Source: Octopus vulgaris (lineage: Eukaryota). Taken from it: a stretch of 64,000 nucleotides of DNA. Location: positions 15,190,001-15,254,000 of the forward strand of contig OX597833.1 of assembly GCA_951406725.2 (NCBI GenBank), in the 5' to 3' direction. A model generated the notes under the pieces. It had not been told where the DNA came from and ran no database searches. It saw only the letters and a list, made by a program, of their open reading frames with translations. Made by a program: the position numbers and the translations under genes. How positions within the stretch are numbered: the stretch's first letter is position 1; the number at the start of each line of letters is the position of its first letter. Of this stretch, positions 10,709 to 10,913 are shown piece by piece.

Positions 10709-10913
10709 TACGGAGATGTACTCGCATAGCAAGTAATTTGATCTTAGATCGTGTGCTGAAACGAAAACAATTGCAGCGTGGAAGGTGTTTGTAAGCCATT
10801 TAAGAAACACACAAGAGCCGTTCGATTCACTTCAACATTTAAGTTTAATTTGTCAAAATATTTTCGTCGCTAAAATCCGCAACCTGTTCACTGACAAAAA
10901 TCCGTGCTGCATC
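10709..10913 (-). mobile_element. 205-bp insertion with 13-bp TSD carrying a hammerhead-like fold
   Basis: TATTAATACATAT repeated at 10696-10708 and 10914-10926. Confidence 0.75.
10849..10898 (-). ncRNA. Minimal type-I hammerhead motif, G3-C8 core variant
   Basis: TTTGTCA-GTGAACA-G-GTTGC(GGATTTTA)GCGAC-GAAA-ATAT-TT-TGACAAA: 7-bp helix I, 5-bp helix II, palindromic loop 3. Confidence 0.65.

What the first reader, a model, noticed from the sequence alone, without database searches (positions are those of the whole stretch)
10709..10913. 205-bp TSD-flanked element whose hammerhead core has the C3-G8 pair swapped to G3-C8
Seen: 13-bp TSD; on the minus strand a 7-bp helix I, 5-bp helix II, GAAA, palindromic ATAT and UU, with core GUGAACA instead of CUGANGA. 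Established: C3 and G8 form a Watson-Crick tertiary pair in the active hammerhead. Inference: the double change is compensatory rather than decay, and CUGANGA-based searches would miss it. A discrete short unit with a long TSD and no tRNA head suggests a ribozyme-based non-autonomous retroelement.
Basis: partly seen in the sequence, partly recalled or inferred. Interest (0 to 1): 0.8.

Follow-up and report, generated by a model that had tools for sequence, protein, structure and literature searches.

The report
Penelope end-repeat with swapped-core hammerhead
This 205-base piece is the detached end-repeat of a recently active Penelope-like jumping gene, and it carries a hammerhead RNA motif whose central C-G pair is flipped to G-C in most of its thousands of copies; the flip is likely compensatory and kept by selection, but self-cutting is only predicted, not shown.

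Summary
In detail: a 13-bp TSD, both helices, a palindromic helix III and a G3...C8 core. The unit is not a separate non-autonomous element. It is the solo pseudo-LTR (pLTR) of a Penelope-like element (PLE) with a telomerase-like RT and C-terminal GIY-YIG. In tandem copies the same 205 nt run in frame into the ORF, and its last 91 nt are the first 30 codons. G3-C8 is the family norm: C8 in 6,643 of 7,073 motif matches, G3 in 97 of 100 listed. Related PLEs have C3-G8 or U3-A8 at the same place. Between old and young subfamilies, 0 of 42 ribozyme columns changed versus 12 of 73 free ones (p=0.004). Against catalysis mattering for mobility, a G3-G8 sub-lineage still transposed, and copies show no pile-up at the cut site. 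Short copies have a preferred 5' end with an excess G, likely run-off from capped RNA. In 55 of 56 classifiable inverted pairs, one arm has the tail and one lacks it. Natural G3-C8 was not found in the papers I could read, but four key papers were unavailable. Verdict: new variant of a known kind, interest 0.45.

The parts
10696..10708 (.). Left copy of the 13-bp target-site duplication
   Evidence: family TSDs
10914..10926 (.). Right copy of the TSD; its first base doubles as the modal 5' A of the unit
10709..10913 (-). Solo pseudo-LTR (with tail) of a Penelope-like element
10899..10914 (-). 5' leader; preferred 5' end of short copies (likely transcription start, inferred)
   Evidence: 73 of 113 pieces start at -4..+8, 22 exactly at the A; G before the A in 24 of 44
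10892..10898 (-). Hammerhead helix I, 5' arm
10885..10891 (-). Core G3-U4-G5-A6-A7-C8-A9 (G3=10891, C8=10886)
10884..10884 (-). Extra nucleotide (G) between A9 and G10.1, typical of PLE minimal hammerheads
   Evidence: G also in the five relatives; PMC4209133 passage
10866..10883 (-). Helix II (5 bp, G10.1-C11.1) and loop II; loop II is what changes between subfamilies
10856..10865 (-). G12-A13-A14-A15.1, palindromic helix III (10862-10857), U17; predicted cut between 10856 and 10855
10849..10855 (-). Hammerhead helix I, 3' arm
10710..10799 (-). First 30 codons of the PLE ORF (open frame from ATG at 10799)
   Evidence: continues in frame into the ORF in L083 and L084; the N-terminal 140 aa are 39% identical to the sister family's
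10709..10766 (-). About 58-nt 'tail' between the two 3' ends (unit positions ~147 and ~205)
   Evidence: 53 and 58 of 113 pieces end at these two places

Best explanation
The unit is the solo end-repeat (pLTR) of a recently active Penelope-like retrotransposon, likely copied from the 5' end of the element's RNA by its own reverse transcriptase, and it carries a minimal type I hammerhead whose G3-C8 pair is a likely compensatory swap, predicted to cut slowly as a dimer or with protein help. Shown: identity with the pLTR of RT + GIY-YIG copies; the ORF start inside it; two 3' ends about 58 nt apart; TSDs; G3-C8 as family norm; C3-G8 or U3-A8 in relatives; no change in ribozyme columns between subfamilies. 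Inferred: (1) RNA starts at or near the A at 10914. (2) As in the Anolis PLE, the protein starts reverse transcription inside the ORF start, at one of two sites (10767 or 10709), on nicked AT-rich DNA. (3) On the 5' pLTR this runs off after 147-205 nt and gives solo units; on the 3' pLTR of a read-through RNA it gives long copies. (4) Priming both target strands, one at each site, would give the head-to-head pairs. (5) The ribozyme likely acts on RNA processing or stability, not on integration.
For: PLE parent: RT (YVDD) + CxxC linker + GIY-YIG ORFs lie about 1.0 kb upstream of the same motif, and all 19 motifs that passed the strict scan, in 12 of 20 loci fetched, are G3-C8. Pfam GIY-YIG E=1.5e-5, above cut-off. 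The three best fold matches are telomerases. Protein matches at 97-100% identity without stops indicate recent activity. The unit continues in frame into the ORF. Core: C8 in 6,643 of 7,073 matches, reversed-pattern control 0; G3 in 97 of 100 listed. The sister family in the same genome (100/100 support) has C3-G8; metagenome relatives have C3-G8 (L071, L072) or U3-A8 (L073, L074). Selection: 0 of 42 versus 12 of 73 columns differ, Fisher p=0.004. Dimer: two-strand form -24.6 versus 2 x -12.0 kcal/mol, while closing A15.1-U16.1 in a monomer costs 5.4. Ends. Short and long copies mix on the tree (10 changes, shuffle p=0.54). Literature: C3G/G8C partly rescues a PLE hammerhead, and RT starts at two internal sites (PMC11167929).
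Against: No cleavage data. A G3-G8 sub-lineage (29 G8 in the first 100 of 430 non-C8 matches; one clade of 7 copies at 95/86) inserted at independent sites, so the 3-8 pair was not needed for those insertions. Only 2 of 36 arms that start inside the unit begin at the cut site. The predicted fold pairs G3 with U17, like the inhibitory 3-17 trap in PMC3884650. The sister family and L073 have C at position 9, so the clade tolerates odd cores. With old-subfamily copies added, short and long labels cluster slightly (14 changes, p=0.01). No single family-1 copy fetched has an unbroken ORF from ATG to stop. The 5' end also looks like a 3' splice site.
Confidence: 0.72

Rival explanations
1. The unit is a PLE pLTR, but the hammerhead-shaped motif no longer cuts. 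It is kept as a folded signal (protein binding, translation or promoter control), and G3-C8 only preserves shape.
For: G3-G8 copies transposed; no pile-up of 5' ends at the cut; predicted G3-U17 pair; C9 in the sister family. In Anolis, cleavage is not needed for insertion and no reads end at the cut site (PMC11167929).
Against: All unpaired catalytic positions, not only the stems, are unchanged between subfamilies. Positions 3/8 stay Watson-Crick in all six families compared. The engineered double swap retains partial activity.
Confidence: 0.3
2. The fixed 5' end is not a transcription start. It is a 3' splice site, or an RT stall or self-priming point at the short palindrome just inside the end, so short units are truncated 3'-pLTR copies.
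For: Long copies have a branch-point-like CTAAC, a pyrimidine tract and YAG right before the unit. The D. virilis intron ends at helix I (PMC4209133). 17 of 113 pieces start at +3, the TGCA palindrome. PMC3846280 proposes self-priming for such junctions.
Against: The mode is the A of the AG, two bases before a would-be exon start (22 of 113). The base before it is G in 24 of 44 although the genomic base is C or T (background 0.178). It is still 12 of 32 after dropping 12 rows, chosen by eye, where the partner arm or TSD could supply the G (p=0.007). Bases further upstream are not shared, so no common first exon is seen (rows, read by eye).
Confidence: 0.25
3. The short unit has become an independent non-autonomous, retrozyme- or SINE-like element that copies itself using the PLE protein in trans.
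For: 86 of 113 hammerhead-bearing pieces start within -10..+19. TSDs. Animal retrozymes are reported to derive from pLTRs (10.64898/2026.07.22.740005). Slight clustering in the B+old set (p=0.01).
Against: No head-to-tail arrays among the loci fetched; L012 alone has two direct copies about 610 bp apart. Short copies share the subfamily marks of long copies and mix with them in the sample not chosen for length (p=0.54). The unit stops at the RT start site (91 nt of ORF), whereas the Anolis template needs 172 nt of ORF.
Confidence: 0.1

Closest known systems
Minimal type I hammerheads in pLTRs of metazoan PLEs (Cervera and De la Pena 2014, PMC4209133), including the U3-A8 variant of Schistosoma Cercyon
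   Same: Located in the pLTR; extra base between 9 and 10.1; G10.1-C11.1; palindromic stub of helix III; mostly dispersed single or opposite-strand copies.
   Different: G3-C8 instead of C3-G8 or U3-A8; none of the alignment rows I saw in their supplement has G3. The extra base is G (their consensus is H). Helix I is 7 bp.
Typical Penelope structure (A. vaga Pen2a, PMC3846280; overview PMC8557442)
   Same: A pLTR of about 200 bp holding the first codons; optional tail on one of two head-to-head pLTRs; 8-10 bp TSDs; solo pLTRs; (TA)n targets.
   Different: The tail is about 58 nt rather than 30-40. Solo and paired pLTR-only units are the majority of hammerhead-bearing copies sampled. The RT3-RT4 span is 131 aa despite a C-terminal endonuclease.
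PAc (Poseidon of Anolis carolinensis; PMC11167929)
   Same: Hammerhead next to the ORF start; two ends inside the ORF start defining the tail; AT-rich targets.
   Different: PAc has C3-G8 naturally and G3-C8 only as an engineered partial rescue. Here the ORF starts 92 nt after position 3, not in stem II.
Non-LTR retrozymes of animals (10.64898/2026.07.22.740005)
   Same: Short unit, type I hammerhead, related to a pLTR.
   Different: No tandem arrays seen; contains the parent's coding start; often in head-to-head pairs.

Membership tests
EN+ Penelope-like element (parent) | Telomerase-like RT | tested here: met
   YVDD motif; predicted model pLDDT 86; ranks 1-3 in PDB are telomerases, TM 0.35-0.37
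EN+ Penelope-like element (parent) | GIY-YIG endonuclease in the same ORF, C-terminal | tested here: met
   PF01541 25.6 bits versus cut-off 22.6
EN+ Penelope-like element (parent) | pLTR containing the ORF start; tandem and head-to-head inverted arrangement | tested here: met
   L083, L084; 46 of 82 loci are inverted pairs (this set includes pairs picked from the list)
EN+ Penelope-like element (parent) | Optional tail on one end | tested here: met
   Two 3' ends; 55 of 56 classifiable pairs have one tailed and one tail-less arm, 6 further pairs unclassifiable; about 58 nt, longer than the 30-40 nt reported
Nematis/Neptune clades | CX2-5CxxC linker before GIY-YIG | tested here: met
   Short C-x3-CxxC-x7-C linker, resembling the Nematis rows by eye
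Nematis/Neptune clades | No insertion-in-fingers between RT3 and RT4 | tested here: not met
   131 aa in both families versus about 61 counted by eye for Penelope in PMC8557442 Fig. S1
Nematis/Neptune clades | RT phylogeny with reference elements | not tested
   No reference PLE proteins were available as stored sequences
PLE minimal hammerhead | Literal CUGANGA core | tested here: not met
   G3 and C8
PLE minimal hammerhead | Watson-Crick pair between 3 and 8; U4 G5 A6, A9, G12 A13 A14, A15.1-U16.1, H17 | tested here: met
   covariation
PLE minimal hammerhead | Extra base after 9, G10.1-C11.1, palindromic helix III | tested here: met
   features from PMC4209133
PLE minimal hammerhead | Self-cleavage (as dimer or protein-assisted) | not testable with these tools
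   Needs an assay; genomic 5' ends show no peak at the cut
Non-LTR retrozyme | Head-to-tail tandem units each with a hammerhead | tested here: not met
   None among the loci fetched; not examined genome-wide
Non-LTR retrozyme | Circular RNA intermediate | not testable with these tools
   Only assembled contigs were available
tRNA-derived SINE | tRNA-like head | tested here: not met
   ARAGORN finds 0 genes in 9500-12000 (it can miss decayed heads); the unit's 5' end maps to PLE sequence

The most novel reading that the evidence does not exclude
This is the first documented natural, working G3-C8 hammerhead, held by selection in thousands of copies of an active PLE from an undescribed clade (C-terminal GIY-YIG plus a telomerase-sized fingers insertion). 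Its pLTR-only insertions record the integration mechanism directly: one event primes both target strands at two internal sites of capped RNA and joins the two run-off cDNAs head to head.
Probability: 0.3. Interest if true: 0.7.

Novelty: new variant of a known kind. Interest (0 to 1): 0.45.

Why it matters
In the papers I could read, G3-C8 appears only as an engineered partial rescue, and natural covariation at 3/8 as U3-A8. A young, high-copy family with G3-C8, and a C3-G8 sister family in the same genome, gives a ready natural pair for asking whether PLE hammerheads need to cut and how fast. It also shows that CUGANGA and Rfam searches can miss thousands of motifs in one genome. The thousands of short insertions make an open question testable: how PLEs make head-to-head repeats with a tail on one arm only. 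The architecture itself (pLTR, tail, TSD, hammerhead) is known.

Tried and rejected
Rfam at gathering score and at E<=10: no hammerhead. tRNA head: none. Sequencing runs: no RNA holder listed, contigs only, so RNA ends could not be examined. In contigs of 4 runs with four organism codes, no other letter reached 10% at 10891 or 10886, but one run had only 2 contigs laid. G3-G8 as the evolutionary intermediate: rejected as unlikely, because the most diverged copies carry C8 and the supported G8 clade is nested among C8 copies; no C3-G8 copy was seen. G3-G8 copies as segmental duplicates: rejected, flanks differ. The patterns fixed loop II and so excluded older subfamilies; searches removed that bias. 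Copies are best hits to a query and were not used for length statistics. A genome-wide profile of copies that begin 3' of the ribozyme was not obtained; one search covers only 160 fetched loci, most chosen for an intact motif. In the tree, rows L077 and L078 are out of frame and uninformative. Motif-like matches were found in 4 of 11 metagenome loci. Sequence search of PDB gave only weak RT hits. No earlier finding matched this sequence. Not held, so unread: Lunse 2017 (PMC5785218), Przybilski and Hammann 2007 (PMC1986816), Hammann 2012 (PMC3334697), Seehafer 2011 (PMC3004062); any could report natural G3-C8. File 1 of the PMC4209133 supplement, figure images and the bioRxiv supplements could not be seen.

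Full report
Observation. The 13-bp direct repeat abuts both ends (10696-10708, 10914-10926). On the minus strand the motif has a 7-bp helix I, core G3-U4-G5-A6-A7-C8-A9 (10891-10885), one extra G, a 5-bp helix II, GAAA, a six-base palindrome and UU, with the predicted cut at 10856/10855. The MFE fold gives helices I and II, but z is only -1.3. Rfam misses it. This copy has a minority wobble at 10881.

What it is. The unit is a high-copy repeat in a 2.8-Gb genome. The host is most likely an octopus, since the best named homologue of the parent protein carries that label. Fetching widely spaced motif pairs revealed RT and GIY-YIG coding sequence about 1.0 kb upstream. [quoted passage not shown] Many copies are 97-100% identical at the protein level without stops. 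In L083 and L084 the 205 nt continue in frame into the ORF, so 10799-10710 are the first 30 codons. This is the described Penelope pLTR anatomy: first codons inside the pLTR, optional tail, head-to-head inversion, TSD and solo pLTRs (PMC3846280 passages; PMC8557442 passages). No family-1 copy I fetched is unbroken from ATG to stop: L051 has a 979-aa open part lacking about 75 N-terminal residues, and L083 and L084 contain stops.

The core swap. With position 8 fixed as C, a 20-letter degenerate motif has 6,643 exact matches; with any other base, 430; reversed controls 0. G3 is present in 97 of the first 100 C8 matches. The first 100 non-C8 matches are 46 T, 29 G and 25 A at position 8 (counted by eye), and none is C3-G8. 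With loop II fixed, 22 matches lacked G3, none C3-G8. All 19 strict-scan motifs in long young copies are G3-C8. The sister family in the same genome (about 52% protein identity; 100/100 support) has C3-G8 at the homologous place. Of 11 metagenome relatives, four show a motif: two C3-G8 and two U3-A8. By parsimony G3-C8 arose in this family's lineage (inference). Between 29 old and 13 young copies, majority letters differ at 0 of 42 helix or core columns and 12 of 73 leader, loop II and UTR columns (p=0.004). That points to selection on the motif in the master copies.

Against cleavage being needed. A G3-G8 sub-lineage exists: 11 of 34 old copies examined, 7 in one supported clade nested among C8 copies, with different flanks. 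Of 36 pieces that start inside the unit in 160 loci, 2 start at the cut site, about what an even spread would give (most loci were chosen for an intact motif). The fold predicts G3 pairing with U17. PMC3884650 (passages) describes a 3-17 trap and notes that G3-C8 is less active with C17 than with G17, so U17 may be the tolerable choice (inference). Energies favour helix III forming between two motifs: dimer -24.6 versus -24.0 for two open monomers, and +5.4 to close it in a monomer. In the Anolis PLE the hammerhead cuts only with the protein, is partly rescued by C3G/G8C, and is not needed for insertion (PMC11167929, parts 1-2 of 4).

How the short units likely arise. I fetched the first 100 matches as 82 loci, giving 113 ribozyme-bearing pieces. 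3' ends fall at about 147 (53) or about 205 (58). 5' ends: 24 extend more than 40 nt upstream, 86 lie at -10..+19, 73 at -4..+8, and 22 exactly at the A at 10914. Where the start is intact and not extended, the preceding base is G in 24 of 44 although the element's own base is C or T; after dropping 12 ambiguous rows it is 12 of 32 (p=0.007). This suggests copying of a cap (recalled knowledge: RTs can add a base opposite the cap), but the site also resembles a splice acceptor. Of 112 loci (82 plus 30), 62 are head-to-head pairs: 55 have one tailed and one tail-less arm, 1 has two tails, 6 are unclassifiable. Two-site priming on both target strands would explain this; PMC3846280 instead proposes self-priming. 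Short and long copies mix on the tree in the 58-copy sample not chosen for length (p=0.54), with slight clustering when old copies are added (p=0.01; 205 columns give low resolution). I read the short units as repeated by-products of the autonomous element, not a separate lineage.

Comparison and novelty. It works like the minimal PLE hammerheads of PMC4209133 (parts 1-2 of 4; supplement file 2 part 2 of 3 plus term search) and fails only their literal CUGANGA core. Natural 3/8 covariation is reported there, and in PMC3088659 (passages; supplement term search with no hit), as U3-A8. G3-C8 appears as an engineered rescue. Searches turned up no natural G3-C8 report in the listings and passages I read, but four key papers were not held, so priority is uncertain. 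Other papers seen as passages only: PMC6765202, PMC6155905, PMC2377424, PMC10085705, PMC8495972; the 2026 bioRxiv retrozyme paper as part 1 of 5 plus passages. Two unchecked notes of this scan describe G3-C8 motifs behind PLE RTs in other genomes, which would make the swap recurrent; I did not test them. The clade assignment is open: a Nematis-like linker but a long RT3-RT4 insertion.

Verdict. Real feature; known architecture; a core variant fixed at high copy number, with covariation and selection behind it and no activity data. New variant of a known kind; interest 0.45.

Noticed in passing
L051:2971-5907 (-) and L156:1942-5877 (+): Both PLE families have a 131-aa span between RT motifs 3 and 4, about 70 aa longer than canonical Penelope, although their endonuclease is C-terminal. 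PMC8557442 describes such insertions mainly for N-terminal-EN clades and TERTs. Possibly an undescribed clade; 112 homologues were found.
   Followed up: partly
L154, L156-L160 (G000): A sister PLE family with unbroken 1,311-1,312-codon frames, pLTR-ORF-pLTR or tandem structure, an Asn-rich insert, and a C3-G8 hammerhead with C at position 9 and a non-palindromic helix III.
   Followed up: partly
L073:2497, L074:22 and 3432, L071:4973: Related PLEs carry further core variants: U3-A8 with C9 (L073), U3-A8 with short helices (L074), and C3-G8 with U15.1-A16.1 (L071); all have G as the extra base.
   Followed up: partly
L172-L174, L182, L189, L191, L199: An older sub-lineage with a mismatched G3-G8 core made independent insertions; six of the seven in the clade lie on C16 between 4.8 and 8.9 Mb.
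   Followed up: partly
L060:1986 (+) and 1834 (-): Two unrelated canonical type I hammerhead-like motifs (C3-G8, no extra base) on opposite strands, belonging to another repeat.
   Followed up: no
window 9327-9756, 11500-11632, 11865-12236 (L001:119-548, 2292-2424, 2657-3028): Several copies of another very abundant ~420-bp repeat, shared with many loci.
   Followed up: no
window 24342-25122: A long ATC/ATT-rich trinucleotide tract with open frames on both strands; every ORF of 250 aa or more in the window is microsatellite-derived.
   Followed up: no
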